From Thermodesulfobacteriota bacterium (GTDB lineage Bacteria; Desulfobacterota; Desulfobacteria; Desulfobacterales; C00003060): a stretch of DNA of 24,068 nucleotides. The notes beneath the pieces are model-generated. The model was not told the DNA's origin. It saw nothing but the letters and a program-made list of their open reading frames with translations, and did no database searches. Location of the stretch: positions 1 through 24,068 of the forward strand of contig JAXHVD010000036.1 in assembly GCA_034189385.1 (NCBI GenBank), in the 5' to 3' direction. A program made the translations under genes and the position numbers. This document shows, piece by piece, positions 726-11,800 of the stretch (positions within the stretch are counted from its first letter, which is position 1; every line of letters begins with the position of its first letter).

Positions 726-815
726 TAACAACGTCGCAAATCACCGGGCCGCGACGAATGATTGTCCATTTGAAAACGCCCGGCTTCGCGGCTGCGGTGG
801 ATTGCATTGTTATTT
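726..815 (-). mobile_element. attC site
   Basis: Minus strand: R'' AAATAAC (contains the TAA stop of the 810-1997 ORF), stems ATCCACCG/CGGTGAT and GCCGCGA/TCGCGGC, and R' GTT at 732. Confidence 0.8.
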
Positions 816-1997
816 GCCGTCCGGTTCTTTGAGCAAGTCGCGTATAACCTTTTCGGATTCGGATAATAACGACTGGCTATTCGTGAATTCGATCAACAGC
901 CTGTCAATGGCGTCTACAGCACCTCGTTTGGCCTTGTTTAAAGTAGTGGTCATTCGTGGAAGTGAAGCTATTGACTCACGGAATTCAGCGGTAGATTGCT
1001 TTGATGTCGCGAGCGTACTCCGCAGTGTTATTACGGCATCCAAACCCTCTTGTACATCTCCCGCTTTATTTTCCAAATCTACAGTCATAGTTGCGGCCTT
1101 AATAAATGAATTCATCCCAGTATTCATGGCGTCATTGTACAAAGGCAATTCCGCATCAATTCGCGCCGTGAATTGGTTCATATCTGAAGCAGCCTTAGAT
1201 ATGACACGTTTGGCTTCTTTGGGATTTGCGTTGCCTTTTGAATCTCGGGGAAGGGCGTTCATCTCAGCTGTTCTTGCATTAGTTTTCGCACCGAGGTCTT
1301 CGGTCGCAGTGGCAATTCGTTGTGTTATTTCGAGGAGTTCAGCAAATTTGTCCTGAAAAACCTCCATTAGGTCCAAGATGCCATCATCGTCATATTCGTC
1401 AGTTGCATTTTCGGACTCGTTTTGAGCGGTGTCGTTCTCTTCAGTTGCTGCAACCGATGTTGGCCGCGATTTCCAAGCTTGCACCTGTCGAGTCAAGTGA
1501 AGGCGAATTAGTTTTTCAAAATGGCCGATGTCGGTAAATTTCCAATACAGTCCGCCTTCGTCGCCTAGTGAGTCGCGGAATGCGTTCACGTTCGCAAGCT
1601 CAGCTGGGTCCAACTGGCTTGGAGGAATAGGTTCATCTTTGAAGTAAACCATCAACTGAACGGAGTTGTTGTCAGCGTCATAGCGAGCTTTGGCGCGTTC
1701 AAATTCTTCGACGGTGCCAGATCCCGCCCGTCCAGTTGGTGTTCCATATCGGCACCACATGATTCCAACAAAGAAATCGTAGTCTTCGGGAATCTGGTCA
1801 TTGATTACATCTTGAGCGTCCGCGCCAAATCCGGGATACGCGTGAGTCTCCCATTTCACAAGATCAAGGCGCACGCCAAGTTCGCGGCTCCATGTATTGT
1901 TCAATTCGCGGATTACGTCCTCAAGTTTTCCGCGTTCGGCCTCTACGTCGCCTGGTGAAGCCACGAACACCGTCAATACATGCTCTTGTCGCGCCAC
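810..1997 (-). CDS. DUF4062-domain protein with long C-terminal helical/coiled-coil region (gene cassette)
   Basis: N-terminal VFVASPGDVEAER...FFVGIMWCRYGTP...SGTVEEF is typical of DUF4062. AGGAGG RBS precedes the GTG start. Bounded by GTTATGTGCC and GGCAAATAAC, which are 9/10 complementary. Confidence 0.75.
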   Translation of the reverse strand: MARQEHVLTVFVASPGDVEAERGKLEDVIRELNNTWSRELGVRLDLVKWETHAYPGFGADAQDVINDQIPEDYDFFVGIMWCRYGTPTGRAGSGTVEEFERAKARYDADNNSVQLMVYFKDEPIPPSQLDPAELANVNAFRDSLGDEGGLYWKFTDIGHFEKLIRLHLTRQVQAWKSRPTSVAATEENDTAQNESENATDEYDDDGILDLMEVFQDKFAELLEITQRIATATEDLGAKTNARTAEMNALPRDSKGNANPKEAKRVISKAASDMNQFTARIDAELPLYNDAMNTGMNSFIKAATMTVDLENKAGDVQEGLDAVITLRSTLATSKQSTAEFRESIASLPRMTTTLNKAKRGAVDAIDRLLIEFTNSQSLLSESEKVIRDLLKEPDGK

Positions 1998-2018
1998 AAA
2001 GGCCTCCTCTCGTTAGGC

Positions 2019-2086
2019 ACATAACATGCGGGGGAACGAGTGTGCGGGCGTATTATCCGCACATCCGGTTCAACCAGATGTTGGGC
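2019..2086 (-). mobile_element. attC site
   Basis: Minus strand: R'' GCCCAAC, central stem TGTGCGG/CCGCACA, R' GTTATGT; 68 bp, directly after the stop of 2096-2950. Confidence 0.75.
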
Positions 2087-2095
2087 CGTTCAAGG

Positions 2096-2950
2096 CTATT
2101 GCGCCCATTCAGGTGCTGATGCACGACCTCCAGAATAGAATTCCTTAGCCGCACAGACATCGGCAAAATCCTCCCCCCACTGAGTGATTCGACAGGCCTT
2201 AAAATCGAACATACGATGTACTTCCTGATACCACTCATCGCCTGGCGACCCTCCTTTTTTCGAATGCCAATGTTGAATAGCAAATCTGCGCCAAAGATCA
2301 AAAATCCGGGACACTGGGGGCAAATGGATCGCCTCACGTTCCCATTCGGCATGGTATGGAACAGTGAAGTCAATGAGACCCAGATGCTTCAGGCTTGCCA
2401 AAAACTCCCAGTAGTTGCTGTTATTCACGTTGGCGAGATCGACTTCATCGAAGAAGTGATACGACCACGTGCCGTATCGAATCCACTTGCGCTGAAGATT
2501 CGAGGCATTGATAACCATAACTCGATGGTGTGCGATGGCGGAGAAAAAGCGCGCTTCGTCAGGTAGGATCTGTTGGAGTGCCGTTACGAATGAAGGGTGC
2601 ACGCGACTTGTGCTTTCTTGGTCCATTGCAGATGCCAGAAGGGCCGCAAACATGTTACGTAGCTGAGAATCGTCATCCGGACCAGCAAGTTGAAGGCCTT
2701 GGAGTATTCGACCTTCAATCAATAGGGATGGACTGACAACTCGGTCATGTGCCACCTTTCGGTGCTCAAGACACCTTTCAACTGCGCGAGACACCCAATC
2801 AAAGGCCTGATTGATAGTCCATAAGACACCATCAGCTGGTCGGAGTGCGGTATTGACGGCCTCAGCAAGAGTGCGGCCCACGCGGCGGACACCTGGCTGT
2901 GCCAAATCGTCGTATACTTTCGGAATCAGCTTTTTTAGTTCTTCTTCCAT
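2096..2950 (-). CDS. Abi-alpha / DUF4393 family protein (gene cassette)
   Basis: Motifs VYDDLAQP, LRNMFAALLASAMD and VHPSFVTALQQILPDEA are characteristic of DUF4393/Abi-alpha. Confidence 0.75.
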   Translation of the reverse strand: MEEELKKLIPKVYDDLAQPGVRRVGRTLAEAVNTALRPADGVLWTINQAFDWVSRAVERCLEHRKVAHDRVVSPSLLIEGRILQGLQLAGPDDDSQLRNMFAALLASAMDQESTSRVHPSFVTALQQILPDEARFFSAIAHHRVMVINASNLQRKWIRYGTWSYHFFDEVDLANVNNSNYWEFLASLKHLGLIDFTVPYHAEWEREAIHLPPVSRIFDLWRRFAIQHWHSKKGGSPGDEWYQEVHRMFDFKACRITQWGEDFADVCAAKEFYSGGRASAPEWAQ

Positions 2951-3201
2951 GTTACGTAGACCACATTTTAGATCCGTCTAATCGCGGCGACGCAGTCGCC
3001 GTGAACCAGCTAGTATCTAGTTTTCTTGATAAATACCACCATCAAGAAGCCCTGAGGCAGGGCATTTCAACTTTTCGCGTGTTTCCTAACCGGATAACTC
3101 CACATACTTATAGACGACAGATGGCTGACGACAGATCGCAGATGACTGGGCCATGGCGTTCAAACCTCGTGGCTATTTGTGAGATCCAAGAACCTAAAAT
3201 A

Positions 3202-3249
3202 TCTCGCCCGCTCACTCCGTTCGCTAGAGCTCTCAGAGAGCTCAGAGAT
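3202..3249. repeat. Dispersed repeat, copy A (TCTCGCCCGCTC...TCGCTAGAGCTCTCAGAGAGCTCAGAGAT)
   Basis: 29 nt (3221-3249) are identical to 4575-4603 and the 5' motif is shared. A partial third copy is at 3455-3470. Confidence 0.85.
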
Positions 3250-3256
3250 GAACTTC

Positions 3257-3292
3257 TTGACCTAATTCTTCGAGCACGAAGAATTAGGTCAA
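3257..3292. repeat. Perfect 16-bp inverted repeat
   Basis: TTGACCTAATTCTTCG-agca-CGAAGAATTAGGTCAA, followed by a small TCCGCC-gaa-GGCGGA hairpin (3300-3314). Confidence 0.9.
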
Positions 3293-3295
3293 CCC

Positions 3296-3397
3296 TCAGT
3301 CCGCCGAAGGCGGAGCACTAATAACCCTGGTGATGCCGTCTTTGAGCAAAGCCTCGTTGAAATTTATCAATGGCCAGACGCCCACAGGGATGTTGAG
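3296..3397 (-). pseudogene. C-terminal remnant of a GxxExxY protein gene
   Basis: Translates LNIPVGVWPLINFNEALLKDGITRVI, matching the GxLINFNxxxLKDGIxR C-terminal signature. The N-terminal GxxExxY part is absent. Confidence 0.65.
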
Positions 3398-3529
3398 CGG
3401 ATTACCCTTCTCAGGAAATCGGCTGAAGGCTCTGTGAGAGATAGGCCTTTGTAATCTCTCGCCCGCTCCCGACCGTCCTGGCACAGGCCGGACGAGAGAC
3501 GGGGACAGCATGAATCGGAGAACCGGAGA

Positions 3530-3643
3530 TCATTTGACGAGGCATTTGCCCGCTTCAGCGATCATCTTCACGATCTGCCCCGTTATCTGATCATAGGTTG
3601 AATCCAAACCATGATTTGTCTCATCATTCAGAAATTCACACCC
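3530..3643 (-). pseudogene. C-terminal remnant of a four-helix-bundle (23S rRNA IVP / bAvd-like) protein gene
   Basis: Not in the ORF track. The minus frame reads GCEFLNDETNHGLDSTYDQITGQIVKMIAEAGKCLVK*, resembling the CGYL...YDxIxGxLVKMI end of this family. No start codon or N-terminus. Confidence 0.55.
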
Positions 3644-3663
3644 CTTCTCGGATTCACCGGGCC

Positions 3664-4230
3664 TCAGTTCTTCCCTTTCTTACGCTTACCGTAGGACGCA
3701 CGCTTTTCCTTGACCTCAAAACCTATCTTTCTCTTGGGCTTCTCAGGCGGTGCCATGAGTTGGCGAATCGCCTCAAAAATGACCTCAATCTTCTCATCAT
3801 GATCTTTGATATGCTTCTCCAGTTCCCGGAACTTCCGTGCCAGTTGCTTATGGGTTGCCAGCACCTCTCGAAGCTTCACGAACGCCCGCACCACGAAGAT
3901 ACTTGCCTATATGGCCCTTGGCGTATTAAGGACGCTGGCAGCCATGATGGCCCCATGTTCAGTAAATGCATGTGGGAGAGACCGAGAGAACTTGAGTTTT
4001 GATAGGTGGTTGCAATTTGCAACCACCTCAGCCTTTTCCCCTGCACTGAGGCGAAACATGAAATCCGACGGGAACCGCTTAGTATTGCGCCTCACTTGCT
4101 GATTGAGTCTCTTGGTTGTGACTCCGTAAAGCTCGGCAAGGTCGGTATCCAGGATAACTTTTTGACCTCGCACCAGCAAAATGGTCCTTTCAACCTGTTC
4201 AACCGGAACTATGGCATGCTTACCTGTCAT
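3664..4230 (-). pseudogene. ORF6N-domain (KilA-N-like) DNA-binding protein, split by an in-frame TAG at 3907-3909
   Basis: RGQKVILDTDLAELYGV..KRLNQQVRRN..RFPSDFMF...AFTEHG...VLNTPRAI*ASIFVVRAFVKLRE...RKIGF; both halves are in the same frame. Confidence 0.85.
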
Positions 4231-4344
4231 GAGCCTGTCCCTCGGCAGAACTCACACTTTTCAGGTGCCAAAATGGTGACTCAACTTCTCAATCCCCTGC
4301 TTTTTCAATTCAGATATGTGCTTGGCTGATCACGTTACAGACCC

Positions 4345-4536
4345 CCAAAAAAACAAAACCCCATCTCTCTTAGCGAGAAGCGGGGTCTTTCCACTCAGTT
4401 CATGGCACCCTCTTGGCTTGAGGTTGTTGGGGAAAAAGGGAAACAAAAGCCCATACCACATCATAATGAGAGTATCAATAGCCCAAAGTGACCATTCTTC
4501 ATGCAAAAACTACCTAATTCCCGTGCAAAAACTACG
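4345..4536 (-). promoter_or_regulatory. Leader module, copy 1 (diverged): promoter, RBS, minigene, terminator
   Basis: TTGATA-17-TATGGG; AAGAGGGTGCC ATG AAC TGA (4403-4395); hairpin ACCCCGCTTCTC-gctaa-GAGAGATGGGGT plus T-tract; TGCAAAAACTAC motifs at 4502 and 4524. Confidence 0.65.
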
Positions 4537-4539
4537 GGG

Positions 4540-4603
4540 TCTCTCGCCCGCTCCCCCTTCGACTCGGCTCAGGGTCGCTAGAGCTCTCAGAGAGCTCAGA
4601 GAT
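4540..4603. repeat. Dispersed repeat, copy B, with an internal REP-like CCTTCGACTCGGCTCAGGG
   Basis: Shares the 5' motif and an identical 29-nt 3' block with 3202-3249. Confidence 0.85.
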
Positions 4604-4714
4604 TCTTCCTCATCAGAATCAAACCCTGATGAAGCCTTCGAGGCCAACGAGTCTGGGTGAGCAGCGAAGCCGATAAACCCGAAAAGATGTGCCTACTCAC
4701 GAAGACCCCTGACA

Positions 4715-5944
4715 CTAGGACGCCCCTTCAGTAAAGCTTCCGGCAAAGTGCTTTCGTACCTGTTTGTTGCCGACATGCCTGGATAGCAACTTATAGTTAT
4801 TCTGCTCGTATCGGATTCTTCCTGCAATGATCGCGGGATGAATCTTCAGCTTTGCCGCCAAGGTATACACCTCAGAACTCGTCGCCTTGCCCGCAATGGG
4901 CCTTTTATCCCAAATCCTTTTAGGAATAAGTCCATCCGTTGTCATTTCATCGGCCTCTTTCTCCATTATGTCATCGGCCTCGCCCTCTCTTCCTCGCAAG
5001 TCCAAATCATCGATAATGAGCCGGTCGGATGTCGATAGATGCTTTGAAACATGGGCGAGTTCATGGAGCAGGCAAAACCAGAAATTGTCAATTCTATCGT
5101 AGCGAAGCGTTAGGCCGATGACCGGGGTCTCATCTGACAACAACATGGCGGCTCCATCGAGGTAGGTTTTGGGGAGGTGGGGAACCACAATCAGATGAAT
5201 CCCGTGTTTCTCAAGGTATTCTCTGGCAAGCAAAGGGCCGTTGTCAAAATAGCTCAACCGCGCAACTTCCTGCAACGTACTTAATCTAATTGAGCCCTTC
5301 ATATATCTTGTTTTCAAAGGGTTCTTTCGGGCAAGGGACAGCACGCGAATGCACCACGCGGTGAGGGAATATAGGTCCATCTTAGGATTGTATCTGCCCC
5401 TTATCCCATGGCGAAAAAATCCCGTTGGGACAGACTCCAATCCACCGGCTTGTGTGACAAAATCGCGTATCAATTCCTCGGCCTTTTCCTTTATGTCGGC
5501 CCCCGCCCGAATCCAACCGCGCTTTGCCATTTCAACTACCGGGAATCTAGACCATTCCATGTCCTGCATCTCGTCCGGGAAATCCGCACCTGGCTCCTTT
5601 AGCAGCACTTCGGCAGATATACCCAAGCCTTTGTTCAGCGATCTCATCATGGCCAGGGTAAGCGACCGTTTACCATTCAGGACTTCAGACACCTTGCTTT
5701 TGGTGCCAATGAAGGGAACCATGTCTTTTTGGCTTAATCCCAGCTGCTCCATGCGAAACTTTATGGCATCAATGGGCTCAGGGGGGCTCATAGGGAAGTG
5801 GCGATCTTCATACATTTCTACAAGGGCAGTCAGCAATTCCAACTCATCCATTTCAATGCTGCCCGGTTTGGCCTCCATAAGCTGATCAATGCGCGATAGG
5901 GCCATGTCGTAATCTTCTTCATTTTTTATCAGGCGGTTAATCAT
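4715..5944 (-). CDS. higA: HigA antitoxin: HTH fused to an ImmA/IrrE-type Zn metallopeptidase domain
   Basis: ELELLTALVEMYE...PIDAIKFRMEQLGL...SKVSEVLNGKRSLTL (HTH); YLDGAA, LTLRYDRIDNFWFCLLHELAH (HExxH). Abuts the higB stop. Confidence 0.9.
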   Translation of the reverse strand: MINRLIKNEEDYDMALSRIDQLMEAKPGSIEMDELELLTALVEMYEDRHFPMSPPEPIDAIKFRMEQLGLSQKDMVPFIGTKSKVSEVLNGKRSLTLAMMRSLNKGLGISAEVLLKEPGADFPDEMQDMEWSRFPVVEMAKRGWIRAGADIKEKAEELIRDFVTQAGGLESVPTGFFRHGIRGRYNPKMDLYSLTAWCIRVLSLARKNPLKTRYMKGSIRLSTLQEVARLSYFDNGPLLAREYLEKHGIHLIVVPHLPKTYLDGAAMLLSDETPVIGLTLRYDRIDNFWFCLLHELAHVSKHLSTSDRLIIDDLDLRGREGEADDIMEKEADEMTTDGLIPKRIWDKRPIAGKATSSEVYTLAAKLKIHPAIIAGRIRYEQNNYKLLSRHVGNKQVRKHFAGSFTEGAS

Positions 5945-6244
5945 TTAGATCGCCTCCACGTCAATGCTATCATATTCTCGGTGTGTTCCAATAAAGCGAA
6001 CAAACACCGTTTTCGAATCATAGTTGATTCTGACCACCAATCGGTATTTATTGCCTGCGATATTGAAAACGACCCGATTACCCTTGAGAATGCTTGCAGA
6101 TCCGTACTGAGCCTTTACATCTGCCGGCGATGCCCACTGGGCATGTTTGGCTTCGTAGTACCATGCCTCCAAGGGGCCCTTTGAATCCCCATGCGCTGGC
6201 TGTTGAAAGAACTCGACCAGTGTCTTTCGGCTAATCACATGCAT
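5945..6244 (-). CDS. higB: Type II TA toxin, HigB family mRNA interferase
   Basis: MHVIS...LEAWY...W..PADVK..YGSAS....RVVFNIAGNKYRLVV...VRFIGTHREYD. Confidence 0.93.
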   Translation of the reverse strand: MHVISRKTLVEFFQQPAHGDSKGPLEAWYYEAKHAQWASPADVKAQYGSASILKGNRVVFNIAGNKYRLVVRINYDSKTVFVRFIGTHREYDSIDVEAI

Positions 6245-6303
6245 AGCCTAGTCAGTTCCCTAAAATATGTCAAGCACAAAGTTCCCAATTAGGGAACTTT
6301 GTG
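6245..6303 (-). promoter_or_regulatory. higBA promoter/operator
   Basis: Perfect 12-bp inverted repeat CACAAAGTTCCC-aatta-GGGAACTTTGTG (6275-6303), an extra half site at 6254-6260, and TTGACA-17-TAGGCT abutting the annotated start (possibly a leaderless mRNA with a later start). Confidence 0.6.
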
Positions 6304-6563
6304 GTTCTGCCCATGCAGTAGACAGCCTTTTCTCCCATGTAGGATGCTTCTCATTTTTCCTTTCATTGTCTCGCCCGACGACCACCAAGTTCAGCGGCGG
6401 CATTGGAACGTAGCGCATAACGTCTTTGGGGCCCTTGGGAAGGTCCATGGTTTTATGTATTAGTCACTGCAATTCAACCACTTTTGCCCGTACCACACGG
6501 GAATCGAAGGGGCGGTTTATGGCACGCCCTTCATTTTTCCACATTCGCTTAAGCCCGCAGCCG

Positions 6564-6762
6564 CAAAAAGAGAAAACCCCGTTCTCTTTGGGAGAAACGG
6601 GGCTTTAGCATTTAGTGCATGGCACCCTCTTTGTTTCAGGTTGACGGGTCAGACGCGGACCTTACGGTATCTACCACCAGGAGGTTTTTTTGTCAAGGAT
6701 TCTAATGGGTAACAAATGGTAGAACGGCCTAATCCGGGTGCAAAAAGTACGATATTTGAAGC
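6564..6762 (-). promoter_or_regulatory. Leader module, copy 2: promoter, RBS, minigene, terminator
   Basis: TTGACA-17-TAGATA with a TG extension; AAGAGGGTGCC ATG CAC TAA (6620-6612); hairpin GCCCCGTTTCTC-ccaaa-GAGAACGGGGT plus T-tract. Highly similar to 11592-11790. Confidence 0.75.
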
Positions 6763-6990
6763 AGTGACAAGTGACGAGTGACGAGTGACCAGAGGGGAGA
6801 GCACCGACGACAGACGACAGAGGACGGAGGACAGACTGAAGAGAACAGAGGACCGATCTCGGGAAAGGAAGGGCCGGCGAAACGGGGACGAGGGACGAAA
6901 ACAGAAAGACGACGGAAGACGGAAATGAGACCAAATAAGAGGGGCGAAACGGAGAGCCGGAGAAGGGGGGAAAGGACGAGAGCTTCAGCA
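6763..6990. repeat. Heptamer tandem repeats and purine-rich low-complexity tract
   Basis: AGTGACA AGTGACG AGTGACG AGTGACC (6763-6790), CCGACGA CAGACGA CAGAGGA CGGAGGA (from 6804), then a nearly T-free + strand. Confidence 0.8.
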
Positions 6991-7095
6991 GAAACGATTC
7001 AGGGTATCCTTCAACGTTTCGGAACACACCCGCAGCAGCCGGATTATGAAGACTGCAAGGGGGCTTGGTAACAGCCTGTCTACATGTAACCCTTG

Positions 7096-7831: not shown

Positions 7832-8026
7832 ATGCGAACCAATATTGTGATAGACGACGAACTCATGAATGAAGCAATGACACTCAGCCGGCTCAAAACC
7901 AAAAAAGCTGTTGTTGAAACCGGACTGAGACTATTGGTCCAAATGAAGAAACAAGAGCGAATCAAAAGTCTGCGCGGGAAACTGAAATGGGATGGCGACC
8001 TCAATAAAATGAGGTTGGATCGGTGA
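7832..8026 (+). CDS. vapB: VapB-family antitoxin (DUF2191 type)
   Basis: MRTNIVIDDELMNEAM...TKKAVVETGL...LRGKLKWDGDL; GGAGG RBS; overlaps vapC at GTGA. Confidence 0.9.
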   Translation: MRTNIVIDDELMNEAMTLSRLKTKKAVVETGLRLLVQMKKQERIKSLRGKLKWDGDLNKMRLDR

Positions 8027-8421
8027 TATTGGTCGACTCATCCGTATGGATCGATTATTTCAACGGCTTGTCCACGTGGCAGACAGACTCACTCGACAAT
8101 TACCTTTCCAATGTGCCCGTCGTCATCGGGGATCTGATTCTCACTGAGGTCCTTCAGGGCTTCAGATCAAACGAGGATTTCGAAACCGCCAAGAGCTTCC
8201 TTAGCGTTCTCCCGTTCCGCCAAATCGGTGGATACAATGTCGCGATTCAAAGTGCCAAAAATTACCGCTCCCTTCGAAAAGCTGGCGTGACCGTAAGGAA
8301 AACGATTGATGTCATTATAGCAACTTTTTGTATCATCGAAGGATTGACTTTGCTCCACGATGATCGTGATTTTGACCCCATGGAATCCCATTTTTCCCTG
8401 AAGACATTCCCACCACCGTAA
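8023..8421 (+). CDS. vapC: VapC PIN-domain toxin
   Basis: ILVDSSVWIDYF...EVLQG...RKTIDVIIATFC....LLHDDRDFD. Confidence 0.92.
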   Translation: MILVDSSVWIDYFNGLSTWQTDSLDNYLSNVPVVIGDLILTEVLQGFRSNEDFETAKSFLSVLPFRQIGGYNVAIQSAKNYRSLRKAGVTVRKTIDVIIATFCIIEGLTLLHDDRDFDPMESHFSLKTFPPP

Positions 8422-8452
8422 ATTCGGCATATCCCCTGCCATTTATTGTTTT

Positions 8453-8553
8453 GACGTACGTCCGAGCTTAGCTGAATGGTGTTCTGTGTCTTTTCAACGT
8501 TTATTAGGAAAAACACGCAAGCGTGACATTTCAGCTACAGCGATATGTTCGCT
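8453..8553 (-). mobile_element. attC site with degenerate R'
   Basis: R'' AGCGAAC at the relE stop, L boxes CTGTAGCTGA / TCAGCTAAG, and GTACGTC at the R' position. Confidence 0.6.
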
Positions 8554-8834
8554 TAAGTGCTTTTCATGTATTTTCTTAAATCTCGGTAGTAATTTTCATA
8601 AGGGCCAATCATTATCAATTCTAGATTTCCTTCAATAATTCTGTAAGCCAAAAGATACTGAGTTGCCCCGATCTTAAACTTGTGTACGTAGATACCTCGC
8701 AAATCGCCCTTCTTTTCAAAGCCGATGGTCGGATCGTCGATAATCGCCTTTACCTGCTCGTCCAACTGTAGCTTTTGTTTTTTGCTGAATTTCCTGACTT
8801 TTCGTTGAAAAGATCTTGATTGGAGGGCTTTCAT
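8553..8834 (-). CDS. RelE/ParE-family toxin
   Basis: FQRKVRK...IIDDPTIG.EKKGDLRGIYVHKFK.....YLLAY....L.MIGPYENYY. Confidence 0.88.
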   Translation of the reverse strand: MKALQSRSFQRKVRKFSKKQKLQLDEQVKAIIDDPTIGFEKKGDLRGIYVHKFKIGATQYLLAYRIIEGNLELIMIGPYENYYRDLRKYMKST

Positions 8835-8840
8835 AGAATC

Positions 8841-9059
8841 CTATCCAAATTTATATTCAGAAGATTCGCCCTGATCCAACTCAGCTACCCCAATCAATAT
8901 TTCTTTAATGAGGCTGTATGTGAGGTCGGGATTTTCCTCTGCGCATTTTCCAATTCTAGCCCAATGTTCAATTTGCCCGGTTATGGATCGTTTGTCGATT
9001 TTGCTATAGATTTTAGCCTCTTTGACCAGTTCACCAGAGACTCTAATAGCTGTTGTCAT
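8841..9059 (-). CDS. ParD-like antitoxin
   Basis: MTTAIRVSGELVKEAK.YS....RSITGQIEHWARIGK.AEENPDL; start moved to ATG 9059. Confidence 0.88.
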   Translation of the reverse strand: MTTAIRVSGELVKEAKIYSKIDKRSITGQIEHWARIGKCAEENPDLTYSLIKEILIGVAELDQGESSEYKFG

Positions 9060-9124
9060 CGTAGCACCCCCGTGTTTTTTGTCGCATTTTACCACAATTT
9101 ATTGCGTATTGCAACCTGGTGGGC

Positions 9125-9196
9125 GGGAAACGCTCTGGCTCAGAGGTGGTGGACACGAAGTGGCCACCATCCCTTTGCAGGCGGGTGTTCGACGCC
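9125..9196 (-). mobile_element. attC site of the inverted vapBC cassette
   Basis: R'' GGCGTCGAAC is the exact 10-bp complement of the cassette start GTTCGACGCC (9938-9929). Central stem TGGTGG/CCACCA; R' GTTTCCC. Confidence 0.75.
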
Positions 9197-9217
9197 TTTA
9201 AAAACCCATTTTTCTAT

Positions 9218-9253
9218 TGAGATACGATAGATGCCATGGTATATATCATGGCA
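9218..9253 (+). promoter_or_regulatory. Second vapBC promoter/operator
   Basis: TTGAGA upstream of a TATATA box embedded in the near-perfect palindrome TGCCATGGTATATATCATGGCA (9232-9253). Confidence 0.6.
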
Positions 9254-9281
9254 AAAAGCTAGTCAGAAAATGGAGGTTCAC

Positions 9282-9509
9282 ATGAAAACAGCACGCCTTT
9301 TTGTCAATGGACGTAGCCAAGCGGTTCGTTTGCCCAAAGATTTCCGGTTCTCGGGGTCTGACGTCTATATTAAAAAGCTCCATGGAGTGGTCATGCTCAT
9401 TCCCAAGGATGACCCGTGGGCCTCACTTGTCAACAGCCTCGACCATTTTTCCGACGATTTCATGACCACCCGGGAACAGCCAGAACATCAGTCGAGGGAA
9501 GCGTTGTGA
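9282..9509 (+). CDS. vapB: VapB antitoxin (AbrB/MazE type)
   Basis: MKTARLFVNGRSQAVRLPKDFRF; GGAGG RBS before ATG 9282. Confidence 0.92.
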   Translation: MKTARLFVNGRSQAVRLPKDFRFSGSDVYIKKLHGVVMLIPKDDPWASLVNSLDHFSDDFMTTREQPEHQSREAL

Positions 9510-9910
9510 TCACCTTTATGCTAGACACCAACATTTGTATCTACATCATCAAAAAGAAGCCGGAACCGGTACTCGGGCGGCTGAAGAACACTCGCATCTC
9601 CGATATCGGGATTTCTTCAATTACACTCAGCGAACTTGCATATGGGGCAGAAAAGAGTTCCCGGCCCGATCAGAACAAAATTGCCTTGGCCGCATTCCTC
9701 GCTCCCCTCGAAATCCTTTCCTATGACGACATGGCTGCCCAGGAGTACGGGAAGATTCGAGCATATCTGGATCGCTGTGGAACGCCGATAGGGACTATGG
9801 ATATGCTCATCGCGGCACATGCACTATCCCTCAATTGCACGCTGGTCACCAACAACGAAGGCGAGTTCAATCGTGTCGTATCCCTAAAGATGGAAAACTG
9901 GGCCAAATAG
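9506..9910 (+). CDS. vapC: VapC PIN-domain toxin
   Basis: MLDTNICIYII...SSITLSEL.YGAEKS...GTPIG.MDMLIAAHA......LVTNN..EF; GTGA overlap with vapB. Confidence 0.93.
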   Translation: MITFMLDTNICIYIIKKKPEPVLGRLKNTRISDIGISSITLSELAYGAEKSSRPDQNKIALAAFLAPLEILSYDDMAAQEYGKIRAYLDRCGTPIGTMDMLIAAHALSLNCTLVTNNEGEFNRVVSLKMENWAK

Positions 9911-10069: not shown

Positions 10070-10459
10070 TCATAGCGATTTGTTTGTAAAAACGATGAAA
10101 ATTGCACACCCCCATAAAATCAAGGCAACAGTGATGACCAGCAAAACTGCTGCGCTGCTGAAATCTTTTGCCTTCTTGGCAAATACATGAAATTCCGGTG
10201 AAGCCAGATCAACGATTGATTCTATAGAGGAATTTAAAAGCTCAACAATCAAAACAGATGTGCTCGCAAAGAAAAGGAGCCCTTTCCAAGCAAGAGATAG
10301 AGGCAGAAAAGGGAGAACCACCAAACCAATTACGACTACACACAGCTCCTGGCGAAATGCTGTTTCACTTGAAATAGCTACTCTCAACCCATCCAAAGAA
10401 TAAAAGAAAGCTGCCCATATTCTAGCCAGACCAGTTTTCTGTCGAGGCTTTCTTCCCAT
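10070..10459 (-). CDS. dgkA: Prokaryotic diacylglycerol kinase
   Basis: YSLDGL..A...ETAFRQE...VELLNSSIESIVD......H.FAKKAKD.SSAAV; start moved to ATG 10459 because the longer ORF runs through the attC. Confidence 0.9.
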   Translation of the reverse strand: MGRKPRQKTGLARIWAAFFYSLDGLRVAISSETAFRQELCVVVIGLVVLPFLPLSLAWKGLLFFASTSVLIVELLNSSIESIVDLASPEFHVFAKKAKDFSSAAVLLVITVALILWGCAIFIVFTNKSL

Positions 10460-10464
10460 GTCGA

Positions 10465-10531
10465 AAATAACGCTACGCCTCGCAGGACGCGAGGTGGCGA
10501 GCGGTCCTTTGTGAAGCAGCATGTTAGGTGC
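10465..10531 (-). mobile_element. attC site, right arm apparently truncated
   Basis: R'' GCACCTAAC complements the cassette start GTTAGGTGC (10909-10901). Apex stem CCTCGC/GCGAGG is followed almost at once by GTTATTT, with no L' partner. Confidence 0.6.
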
Positions 10532-10535
10532 TTAA

Positions 10536-10880
10536 CTATCCGAAAAAGCAACCGTAGCTATCTTCATCTATGGTAGCAACCAGGTCCTCAATCTTTCTGC
10601 TTTCTCTATGAGGTTCATACTGGTTCCACTTGCCACTTGCTCGTTTCCAGTACAGTTTCCAAACACCACGACTTTTCACGTAAGTAATTTTGGCAAAATC
10701 CATATCCAGCCACTTACTCGGGTCATCCCAACGCGGCCTGCTTTCGAATATGAAAATATCTTGGTTTTCGATTCGGTAGCCGTTTTTCAACTGGTCGCGG
10801 GCTCTTTCATGGACACGATTATCGCAGAATTTTCCAATTAATCTCTCAATTCGTTTCTTTTCTAATTCTGAAAAGGCCAT
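10536..10880 (-). CDS. DUF3024-domain protein (gene cassette)
   Basis: MAFSELE...IFESRPRWDDP......AK..YVKS...WKLYWKRA..KW..YEP...IDED.YGCFFG. Confidence 0.85.
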   Translation of the reverse strand: MAFSELEKKRIERLIGKFCDNRVHERARDQLKNGYRIENQDIFIFESRPRWDDPSKWLDMDFAKITYVKSRGVWKLYWKRASGKWNQYEPHRESRKIEDLVATIDEDSYGCFFG

Positions 10881-10902
10881 TATTCTCTATTCCCTTCTTT
10901 GC

Positions 10903-11008
10903 ACCTAACGCTTGAGCTTACCTGCCGGCCAAGACCTTTCGAGCGTCCACAGGCATTCTCGAAAAACTACAAAAGTTGCTCCCGGTCAGGTACAGTGATT
11001 TGTTAAGT
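10903..11008 (-). mobile_element. Intact attC site
   Basis: Minus strand ACTTAAC aaatc ACTGTACCTGACCGG...CCGGCAGGTAAGC tcaagc GTTAGGT; 106 bp with canonical R''/L''/L'/R'. Confidence 0.88.
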
Positions 11009-11048
11009 GCCCGCCAACCGTTGCAGTTCTATTCCAGCAAATCTACGG

Positions 11049-11267
11049 CTATTTCATTTTCTCCATCTTTTTCCATTTGAATATTGAAAGATAGAGCAAA
11101 AAGACGCCCACAAATATTGCCAAAGGAGCAAATACCAATCCTCCCCACCAGTTTGAGTAAAACAAATCATTTTTCAACACTAAAGGAATTAATCCAGTTG
11201 TCGTGACCACCAAAGCGGTTATGATAACCCCAGACCTTTTAATTTTCCGTTTAGTCTTTTTTTTCAT
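11049..11267 (-). CDS. Small two-TM membrane protein (gene cassette)
   Basis: MKKKTKRKIKRSGV followed by two hydrophobic helices. Cassette bounded by GTTAAGTGC (11282-11274) and GCACTTAAC (11010-11002); ATG 11267 is the start inside the cassette. Confidence 0.65.
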   Translation of the reverse strand: MKKKTKRKIKRSGVIITALVVTTTGLIPLVLKNDLFYSNWWGGLVFAPLAIFVGVFLLYLSIFKWKKMEKMK

Positions 11268-11273
11268 ACCTTG

Positions 11274-11312
11274 GCACTTAACATTAGTAATTATATGCTT
11301 GCGTTTTTTTGC
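11274..11312 (-). mobile_element. First recombination point of array A; possible attI-like site
   Basis: AAAAAACGCAAGCATATAATTACTAAT|GTTAAGTGC: a GTTRRRY core with no attC hairpin upstream, in an AT-rich context. No intI nearby. Confidence 0.35.
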
Positions 11313-11591
11313 CGCTTTCTTAAACCTGAAACACTTGCAAGAAATAAGAGAAAATAAGGCCCGATAAGCCATATTTGCCTAAATGTTCTAGGCTTAGCGA
11401 ATGTTGGCAGTTCAGACAGAGAATTACACAAATGTAATAAGTGCAGCTTTTGCCCCCTCATAGGGGTAGTTATGTTGCAGCGCGCTAACCTTCACATTCA
11501 CTTATTTCCTGAAAAACCTGAGACACTTTTAATGCAGCGACGTGCTCACATAAGACTCAAAGAGTGCTGAACAGCCTTTGCCTAAGCCCTC

Positions 11592-11800
11592 AAAAGACAA
11601 AACCCCGCCTCTCTTTAGGAGAAACAGGGCCTTTCCATTCAGTGCATGGCAGCCTCTTCTTTTCAGGTTGACGGGTCAGACGCGGACATTACGGTGTCTA
11701 CCACCAGGGGGTTTTTTTGTCAAGGATTCTGATGGGTAACAGATCGTAGAACGGCCTATTTTGGGCGCAAAAAATACGATATTTGGATGCAAAAACTGCG
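11592..11800 (-). promoter_or_regulatory. Leader module, copy 3: promoter, RBS, minigene, terminator
   Basis: TTGACA-17-TAGACA; AAGAGGCTGCC ATG CAC TGA (11647-11639); hairpin GCCCTGTTTCTC-ctaaa-GAGAGGCGGGGT plus T-tract; motifs at 11766 and 11788. Confidence 0.75.

What the first reader, a model, noticed from the sequence alone, without database searches (positions are those of the whole stretch)
6570..6640. Met-His/Asn-stop minigene inside a hairpin that competes with the terminator: candidate translation-sensing attenuator
Seen: ATG AAC TGA GTG (copy 1), ATG CAC TAA ATG (copy 2), ATG CAC TGA ATG (copy 3). The stop is kept despite TAA/TGA exchange and is always followed by a second start codon. 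An alternative hairpin pairs the RBS and start with the terminator's 5' arm: GGGT-g-CCAT..GTGG-aaag-ACCC (1), GGGT..CAT..ATG..GCCC (2), GGCT-g-CCAT..ATGG-aaa-GGCC (3). It includes a compensatory G-C>C-G change. Inference: a ribosome on the minigene blocks the antiterminator so transcription stops; when initiation fails (phage, toxins, stress) the antiterminator forms and downstream genes are transcribed. The stems are short and only three copies are available.
Basis: partly seen in the sequence, partly recalled or inferred. Interest (0 to 1): 0.8.

Follow-up and report, generated by a model that had tools for sequence, protein, structure and literature searches.

The report
Ribosome landing pad gating a terminator
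The tiny start-codon gene and the stop-signal hairpin behind it are real copies of a large, uncatalogued leader family of sulfate-reducer relatives that sits in front of defence and other accessory genes and most likely lets transcription continue only when a ribosome has bound, the opposite of the switch first proposed.

Summary
Observation confirmed: three minus-strand copies of promoter, SD, ATG-NAN-stop and terminator hairpin. They belong to a family: 18 copies in this genome, matches in 32/37 genus, 23/121 order and 19/151 phylum genomes, none in Rfam. In 120 copies picked by hairpin sequence alone, 103 carry SD plus start 12-23 nt upstream (control 96/1294). The terminator covaries (0/500 shuffles). 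The stop is optional: 0-13 nt before the stem, or the frame runs into the hairpin (38/103). Ordinary terminators of this genome keep 24 nt or more from stop codons (42/45), and in E. coli a ribosome this close suppresses termination. Best reading (0.55): a ribosome landing pad that blocks the terminator, so ribosome bound means readthrough; default is termination. No RNA data; the signal sensed is inferred. Cargo is often defence, restriction, TA or mobile genes. The scan noted similar SD-minigene-terminator units on other DNA before (e1-7089334, e1-7676351; identity with this family untested). New variant of ribosome-dependent attenuation.

The parts
6668..6696 (-). Copy 2 sigma70-type promoter: TTGACA (6696-6691), 17 nt, TG-extended -10 TAGATA (6673-6668); start of transcription inferred near 6661
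   Evidence: -35 box called in 82 of 134 set A copies; not listed by the strict promoter scan because the -10 lacks its last T
6639..6642 (-). Copy 2 ACCY motif upstream of the SD (possible anti-SD strand of a small hairpin, P1)
   Evidence: ACCY present in 79 of 119 and 60 of 103 copies, control window 6 and 4; pairing support mixed
6625..6629 (-). Copy 2 Shine-Dalgarno sequence GAGGG
6612..6620 (-). Copy 2 minigene ATG CAC TAA (ribosome landing pad)
6565..6606 (-). Copy 2 terminator: GC core 6602-6577, A-U extension from 6606, U tract 6576-6565
6697..6758 (-). Upstream promoter-flanking motif shared with copy 3 and most other copies of this genome, not with relatives
4347..4478 (-). Copy 1: -35 4478-4473, -10 4455-4450, SD 4412-4408, ATG AAC TGA 4403-4395, hairpin 4385-4359, U tract 4358-4347
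11591..11723 (-). Copy 3: -35 11723-11718, -10 11700-11695, SD 11656-11653, ATG CAC TGA 11647-11639, hairpin 11629-11603, U tract 11602-11591
4715..6244 (-). Genes behind copy 2: HigB toxin (6244-5945) and HTH-containing 409-aa partner (5944-4715); PADLOC PD-Lambda-2 A and B
6245..6303 (-). The higB pair's own promoter (TTGACA 6273-6268, 17 nt, TAGGCT 6250-6245) and a 12-bp-arm palindrome (6275-6303); so copy 2 is not its only source of transcription
   Evidence: sequence read directly; function inferred
810..4230 (-). Genes behind copy 1: ORF6N gene split by an in-frame TAG (4230-3907, 3894-3664), Abi_alpha (2950-2096), DUF4062 protein (1997-810); PADLOC PDC-S05, S47, S60
10070..11372 (-). 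Genes behind copy 3: unnamed 107-aa ORF, DUF3024 (PADLOC PDC-S43), diacylglycerol kinase

Best explanation
A portable 5' leader that works as a ribosome-gated intrinsic terminator. RNA polymerase makes about 40 nt, then an SD and start codon, then 12-23 nt later an invariant terminator hairpin. With no ribosome the terminator folds and transcription stops at about 93 nt (computed). A ribosome that binds the SD-AUG in the short time before polymerase reaches the U tract, and sits there through initiation, 0-6 codons and release, covers or crowds the base of the 5' arm, the hairpin cannot close in time, and the cargo genes are transcribed (inferred from geometry and E. coli data). The peptide does not matter: only a loading site next to the stem. 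Readthrough is then set by how fast a ribosome arrives and how long it stays, so it could rise with free-ribosome supply or with stalling at the first codons or at the stop; which of these is the natural signal is not shown. Shown: anatomy, conservation, terminator structure, cis position. Inferred: termination in vivo, direction, signal.
For: Terminator: 91.7% of cells paired, 12 pairs with changes on both sides, 0/500 shuffles; forms with probability over 0.9 in 100 of 103 and 83 of 110 copies without ribosome; the same hairpin ends cobalamin riboswitch leaders in L204 and L206. Start site: 103 of 120 hairpin-only copies vs 96 of 1294; ATG columns 1.6-1.7 bits vs 0.3-0.8 for the spacer; the commonest change is ATG to GTG (12 GTG, 3 TTG). 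Frame length free: start-stop 8, two codons 34, three to six codons 23, into the hairpin 38; all 65 early stops 0-13 nt from the stem; run-in copies keep terminator strength (-19.2 vs -18.4 kcal/mol) and -35 box (19/23 vs 70/96). Genome context: 42 of 45 strict ordinary terminators lie 24 nt or more after a stop, none at 9-23; rho present. E. coli: moving a stop to 5 nt before tR2 cut termination from about 90% to under 10%, uncoupling removed the effect, and terminators in the first 100 nt of a frame still work (PMC4824070). Cis position: next long frame on the same strand in 100 of 123 copies vs 49 of 75 upstream; an SD-led frame starts within 40 nt in 25 of 74, leaving no room for a promoter.
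Against: No RNA, ribosome-profiling or reporter data. The looser terminator scan put 18 of 112 ordinary hairpins within 12 nt of a stop. The E. coli result that early terminators work efficiently means readthrough may always be low, so the module may only damp expression. No pause site that would give the ribosome time was identified. The equilibrium test caught only 1 of 3 riboswitch-linked copies as switchable (L206 yes, L204 and L234 no), so it can miss antiterminators. The model does not explain why the upper stem keeps U-G pairs unchanged (column 102: 76 U-G, 21 U-A, no C-G) or why TGA makes up 81 of 89 codon-3 stops in set A against 40% genome-wide. The higB pair behind copy 2 has its own promoter. 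17 of 120 hairpin copies lack an SD-led start.
Confidence: 0.55

Rival explanations
1. One reading: without a ribosome the SD region pairs with the terminator's 5' arm and transcription continues; a ribosome on the minigene frees the arm and transcription stops, the early stop keeping it off the stem.
For: Hairpins fold in the three copies (-6.0 to -8.6 kcal/mol); early sequestration 0.96 and 0.73 in copies 2 and 3; in another register the SD region resembles the 3' arm and is compatible with the 5' arm in 86.6% of cells; L206 shows that this hairpin can be switched by an upstream purine strand (-13.9 kcal/mol); induction by failed translation suits defence cargo and matches whiB7 and DUF1127 logic.
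Against: No covariation in either register (171/500 and 384/500); RBS:arm duplex -6.5 vs -5.9 for ordinary gene RBSs and -6.9 for shuffled arms, and -5.5 vs -6.2 in set B; early sequestration in only 26 of 110 and 16 of 103; intact-looking copies whose frame runs through the stem; the ribosome lies in the terminator exclusion zone.
Confidence: 0.15
2. Constitutive damper and swap point: a PeSL-like cassette that insulates accessory genes, lets through a fixed small fraction of polymerases (keeping toxic cargo low) and, as a repeat, serves for recombination between islands; ribosome binding only sets the leak and senses nothing.
For: Cargo is functionally unrelated, including pyrF, SOD, PilZ and oxidoreductases; tandem copies between island genes (three in this window; several per contig); flank homology ends at the module in 3 upstream-only and 5 downstream-only pairs among 240 copies, one being window copy 1 vs the C7 copy; sequence-level invariance of the hairpin suits a repeat.
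Against: The leader between -10 and SD is poorly conserved, which limits homology; exchange evidence is a handful of pairs with no empty site; a fixed leak would not need an SD and start codon kept across a phylum; no terminal inverted repeats.
Confidence: 0.17
3. Stability or translation enhancer: the hairpin is a weak pause rather than a terminator; the ribosome on the minigene shields the mRNA 5' end or is handed on to the next gene (as proposed for axe-txe mg2 and LEE minigenes), the 3' arm serving as SD in some copies.
For: Interrupted U tract (TTTT GTG Y TTTT consensus in set A); variants without U tract whose 3' arm is the SD of the next gene (L022, L082, L032, L044); precedent in PMC8708949.
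Against: U positions 1-4 and 9-11 are conserved in 123 copies; the gap to the next gene varies from about 15 to over 600 nt; the same hairpin ends riboswitch leaders.
Confidence: 0.08
4. Trans-acting short RNA of about 93 nt: a minigene RNA that ties up ribosomes, release factor or tRNA (CreT- or lambda bar-like; both recalled).
For: Own promoter and terminator; SD-AUG-codon-stop-hairpin anatomy; up to about 20 copies per genome.
Against: Second codon varies over many amino acids with no rare-codon pattern; fixed same-strand position before genes; many copies lack a promoter call (52 of 134) and lie between genes; no partner antitoxin seen.
Confidence: 0.05

Closest known systems
pyrBI-type coupling attenuation and stop-proximal terminator repression in E. 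coli (PMC4824070, abstract and 12 passages; PMC7858274 passages)
   Same: A ribosome close behind polymerase blocks a terminator directly, with no antiterminator; stop-to-stem distance decides.
   Different: pyrBI has a long leader peptide and UTP-sensing pauses in front of one operon; here 0-6 codons, no pause tract found, and hundreds of copies before unrelated genes.
vmlR and lmo0919 leaders, three-codon uORF (PMC9226507 passages)
   Same: Very short uORF whose sequence matters little; ribosome presence gives readthrough.
   Different: They act through anti-antiterminator and antiterminator hairpins far from the terminator, in Firmicutes, on one resistance gene; here the uORF abuts the terminator and no antiterminator is conserved.
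whiB7 uORF attenuator and S. meliloti DUF1127 attenuator (bioRxiv 2023.06.02.543512 passages; PMC12218461 abstract)
   Different: There efficient translation favours termination, via long uORFs and a defined antiterminator or RBS pairing; the corresponding pairing is not conserved here.
Two-codon minigenes of axe-txe (mg2) and EHEC LEE1 (PMC8708949 passages)
   Same: SD-AUG-codon-stop acting in cis and positively on downstream genes, one in a TA operon.
   Different: No terminator next to them; effect ascribed to mRNA protection and translational coupling; not a repeated family.
PeSL cassettes of T4-type phages (PMC2839356 abstract and section 14)
   Same: Repeated promoter plus stem-loop cassettes between dispensable genes in variable regions.
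   Different: In PeSLs the stem-loop lies at or before the promoter and the SD and start belong to the cargo gene; here a minigene and then the terminator follow the promoter; shuffling was shown for PeSLs and is only hinted here.

Membership tests
Classical ribosome-mediated attenuator (trp/his/whiB7 type) | Translated leader ORF with SD upstream of an intrinsic terminator | tested here: met
Classical ribosome-mediated attenuator (trp/his/whiB7 type) | Conserved antiterminator overlapping the terminator | tested here: not met
Classical ribosome-mediated attenuator (trp/his/whiB7 type) | Control codons matched to the pathway downstream | tested here: not met
   second codon variable, start-stop copies exist, cargo unrelated
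Direct-occlusion (pyrBI-type) attenuation | Ribosome can reach the terminator's 5' base | tested here: met
   stops 0-13 nt before the stem or frame running in; repression at 5-9 nt in E. coli
Direct-occlusion (pyrBI-type) attenuation | Coupled transcription and translation in the host | tested here: inconclusive
   proxy only: 42 of 45 strict terminators 24 nt or more from stops, 18 of 112 loose ones within 12 nt
Direct-occlusion (pyrBI-type) attenuation | Signal-dependent polymerase pause in the leader | not testable with these tools
   no conserved pause tract seen in alignments; needs kinetics
Known Rfam cis-regulatory or sRNA family | Match to a covariance model | tested here: not met
   no match in the window at E 1; in 20 homologous loci only upstream cobalamin riboswitches in 2 and three sub-threshold chance hits
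PeSL-type mobile regulatory cassette | Promoter and terminator repeated between accessory genes | tested here: met
PeSL-type mobile regulatory cassette | Gene exchange by recombination at the cassette | tested here: inconclusive
   8 pairs with homology ending at the module among 240 copies; no empty site
PeSL-type mobile regulatory cassette | Carried by phage genomes | tested here: not met
   no match in viral contigs with two patterns or in phage and plasmid records
MITE or IS end | Terminal inverted repeats | tested here: not met
   none of 7 nt or more around copies 2 and 3
Bacterial SECIS (recalled definition) | In-frame UGA with downstream hairpin, frame continuing in a selenoprotein | tested here: not met
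   TAA and TAG replace TGA, stop position varies, no conserved frame beyond
CreT-type minigene RNA toxin (recalled definition) | Rare codons after the start and a partner antitoxin RNA | tested here: not met
   second codon spread over AAC, CAC, AAT, GAC, AAG and others; no partner looked for beyond the alignments

The most novel reading that the evidence does not exclude
Desulfobacterota use one portable RNA cassette, copied in front of up to about 20 unrelated accessory operons per genome, as a protein-free regulon that reads ribosome supply or stalling at initiation and switches restriction, CRISPR, TA and other defence genes together; the cassette doubles as the exchange point at which island genes are swapped, so a newly gained gene joins the regulon on arrival.
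Probability: 0.22. Interest if true: 0.82.

Novelty: new variant of a known kind. Interest (0 to 1): 0.58.

Why it matters
Known ribosome-dependent attenuators are one-off leaders tuned to one operon. This is a minimal version, a ribosome landing site of 0-6 codons against an invariant terminator, repeated before many unrelated defence and accessory genes across a phylum of slow-growing anaerobes. If the direction inferred here holds, it shows that initiation kinetics alone can gate transcription of horizontally gained genes, gives a natural test of transcription-translation coupling in Desulfobacterota, and offers a 45-nt part for synthetic control. Even as a mere damper it marks island operon starts in these genomes.

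Tried and rejected
RNA evidence: no RNA holder listed for window 4200-6900; no conclusion drawn. RNAalifold on the gappy 134-row alignment returned no structure, so named structures were counted instead. Anti-SD hairpin P1 (upstream CRT and ACCY pairing with SD and AUG): 71% paired, covariation score 1/500 but pair count 109/500; its extension over the minigene unsupported; opening cost above ordinary genes (6.9 and 7.8 vs 5.5 kcal/mol) but above shuffled upstream only in set B (p 0.003; set A p 0.39): kept as a possibility only. Stop-specific selection: 8 of 38 non-TGA codon-3 variants are stops, about what random change would give by my estimate, so not used as evidence. Sigma-54 site on the opposite strand: divergent copies keep SD and ATG but lose the TGGCAC-like motif. 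attC site, IS200/605 end, LexA box, SECIS, known riboswitches: no fitting anatomy (definitions recalled; Rfam). GTG in the U tract as a second start: in frame with the next long ORF in 14 of 123, not clearly above chance. Empty-site test with cooC orthologues: none of 11 other genomes has the module there, but neighbourhoods differ, so uninformative. Phage, plasmid and viral collections: no match. Literature searches found no description of this family; the supplement of PMC11109978, which covers a Desulfobacteraceae genome, could not be read and might list the motif.

Full report
What is there. The finding lies on the minus strand and is one of three copies of a repeat in the window. Copy 2 reads: TTGACA (6696-6691), 17 nt, a TG-extended -10 (6673-6668), about 40 nt of leader, SD GAGGG (6629-6625), ATG CAC TAA (6620-6612), 9 nt, a GC-rich hairpin (6602-6577) and a U tract (6576-6565); copies 1 and 3 have the same layout with ATG at 4403 and 11647. 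The window's left half is a defence island: HigB plus a 409-aa HTH partner (PADLOC PD-Lambda-2 A, B), a split ORF6N gene, Abi_alpha, DUF4062, DUF3024 and three more TA pairs. Rfam has no match at E 1.

A family, not three copies. The genome holds 18 full copies on 10 contigs and 4 promoter-only relatives. A covariance model from 22 copies matched 32 of 37 genus genomes, 23 of 121 order genomes and 19 of 151 phylum genomes, own genome included. I analysed only part of these matches: 12 own regions, 60 regions around the best genus matches and the loci that the searches returned; after dropping hits above E 1e-5, without hairpin anchor or at contig edges, 134 distinct copies remained (set A). 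At least 11 copies occur in both sets. Nothing was found in viral contigs, phages or plasmids.

What is conserved. The terminator: 91.7% of cells paired, 12 of 15 pairs with changes on both sides, no shuffle of 500 as high; the same hairpin closes cobalamin riboswitch leaders in L204 and L206. The start: 119 of 134 set A copies have an SD-led start (104 ATG, 12 GTG, 3 TTG), 93 of them exactly 18 nt before the stem; in set B 103 of 120 have one 12-23 nt before it, against 96 of 1294 control anchors. The stop is looser: in set A 88 at codon 3, 8 elsewhere before the stem, 23 frames running in; in set B 8 start-stops, 34 two-codon, 23 three- to six-codon, 38 running in, and all 65 early stops 0-13 nt from the stem. 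Run-in copies are not decayed (terminator -19.2 vs -18.4 kcal/mol; -35 box 19 of 23 vs 70 of 96). The second codon varies widely. The second start codon is not a family trait (14 of 89; 1 of 65).

The proposed antiterminator fails as a family feature. Its inner stem is complete in 3 of 93 copies and its outer stem in 30 of 93, each pair at the level expected from independent columns; the 'compensatory' change compares different registers. Covariation is absent for it (171 of 500 shuffles) and for the best other register, in which the SD region imitates the 3' arm (86.6% compatible, 384 of 500). RBS:arm duplexes are -6.5 kcal/mol against -5.9 for ordinary RBSs and -6.9 for shuffled arms, and weaker than shuffled arms in set B. 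Without ribosome the terminator forms with probability above 0.9 in 100 of 103 and 83 of 110 copies; upstream RNA captures the stem base early in 16 of 103 and 26 of 110. Against my reading: window copies 2 and 3 are among those (0.96, 0.73), and this test saw the switch in only one of three riboswitch-linked copies (L206, -13.9 kcal/mol). An upstream ACCY motif is conserved (79 of 119, 60 of 103) and may close a small hairpin over the SD, but support is mixed.

Direction. In E. coli a terminator a few bases after a stop codon is almost fully repressed by the ribosome (about 90% to under 10% at 5 nt), the effect fades by about 27-30 nt and vanishes on uncoupling, while terminators in the first 100 nt of a frame still work because the ribosome is usually late (PMC4824070, abstract and passages; reviewed with stop-to-terminator distance as a proxy for coupling in PMC7858274, passages). 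In this genome 42 of 45 strictly called terminators after 2788 long ORFs lie 24 nt or more past the stop, none at 9-23, 3 within 12, with 1 in-gene control hit; a looser scan gave 18 of 112 within 12; rho is present. So the host seems to keep terminators clear of ribosomes, whereas this family always places one within reach, whether at initiation, at an early stop or inside the stem. The simplest reading is that a bound ribosome blocks the terminator and that termination is the default. This is inference; no RNA run was listed.

What it controls. The next long frame is on the same strand in 100 of 123 copies (49 of 75 upstream; crude ORF calls), and an SD-led frame begins within 40 nt in 25 of 74 set B copies, so many genes can only be reached through the hairpin. 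Of 110 downstream proteins scanned (13 of 123 left out: 2 window genes scanned elsewhere and 11 that looked like shadow frames), 95 were same-strand and 73 of these had a Pfam match; by my own sorting 35 of the 73 are restriction, CRISPR, TA, other defence, mobile or DNA-damage proteins (ORF6N, HsdR/HsdM, HamA, TIR, GmrSD, Cas1, Cas6, WYL, Fic, RadC, SRAP, integrase), the rest signalling, envelope and redox or metabolic proteins such as SOD, PilZ and PyrF. No random-gene control was run. The higB pair behind copy 2 also has its own promoter and palindrome. Flank homology ends at the module in 8 pairs among 240 copies, including window copy 1 and the C7 copy, which share ORF6N cargo but not upstream DNA: the leader travels with cargo, and exchange at it is possible but not shown.

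Comparison. It works like pyrBI-type occlusion and shares the short, sequence-tolerant uORF of vmlR (PMC9226507, passages) and the two-codon form of axe-txe mg2 and LEE1 (PMC8708949, passages); it is not a trp- or whiB7-type attenuator (bioRxiv 2023.06.02.543512, passages; PMC12218461, abstract) because the antiterminator test fails, and it differs from PeSL cassettes in layout (PMC2839356, abstract and section 14). The axe-txe paper states that minigenes ending in UAA are more toxic than those ending in UGA or UAG, a possible reason for the TGA bias here. Passages of two ncRNA surveys (PMC11109978, PMC8632094) describe no such motif; the supplement of the first was unreadable; PMC13323073 (passages) had nothing on this lineage. 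Eight literature searches found no description of the family; most subscription papers are not covered. CreT, lambda bar, SECIS, attC and LexA definitions are recalled. Earlier scan notes report similar SD-minigene-terminator units in other genomes (e1-7089334, e1-7676351) and another mini-ORF leader family in this genome (e1-7814726); a sequence look-up found no overlap, so identity is open.

Verdict. Interest 0.58.

Noticed in passing
window 6245-6303 (-): Promoter and 12-bp-arm palindrome directly before higB; the annotated ATG (6244) abuts the -10 box, so the real start is probably GTG at 6238 on a leaderless mRNA.
   Followed up: partly
window 4715-6244 (-): PD-Lambda-2 A and B match strongly; no third gene of that system was seen next to them, copy 1 follows instead.
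   Followed up: no
window 3664-4230 (-): ORF6N gene interrupted by an in-frame TAG at 3909-3907.
   Followed up: partly
window 6760-7000, 3112-3250, 3455-3470, 4540-4603: REP-like arrays of short purine-rich and heptamer repeats and 16- and 29-nt exact repeats between island genes; similar arrays flank other copies in the genome.
   Followed up: no
window 6697-6758, 11724-11785, 4501-4536; G000 C64:87172-87304, C56:67061-67145, C19:47411-47517, C34:59755-59872: A 60-nt motif with about 21-nt periodicity upstream of the -35 box is shared by most copies in this genome and by four promoter-only sites, but not by relatives: possible binding sites of a lineage-specific regulator.
   Followed up: partly
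L022:1473-1570(-), L082:1188-1285(-), L044:1510-1607(-), L032 near 2508: Variants with no U tract in which the hairpin's 3' arm is the SD of a gene starting a few bases later: a translational version of the module.
   Followed up: partly
L204, L206, L234, L255: The same hairpin sequence closes leaders without the usual minigene; L204 and L206 carry a cobalamin riboswitch upstream, and L206 has a strong antiterminator strand.
   Followed up: partly
G000 whole genome: Ordinary terminators show a sharp edge at 24 nt after stop codons (24 of 45 at 26-38 nt), wider than a bare ribosome footprint.
   Followed up: partly
set B, 9 of 38 run-in frames: Frames that enter the hairpin often stop in its loop (12-15 nt in), giving 10-11-codon peptides, reminiscent of the other leader family noted in this genome.
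   Followed up: no
window 7832-9910: Three further TA pairs in 2 kb (VapB-PIN, ParD-ParE, MazE/AbrB-PIN).
   Followed up: no
L002:2882-4126 (G000 C42): A copy precedes a tyrosine integrase with an N-terminal SAM-like domain, on a 6.8-kb contig with a second copy and TA genes.
   Followed up: no
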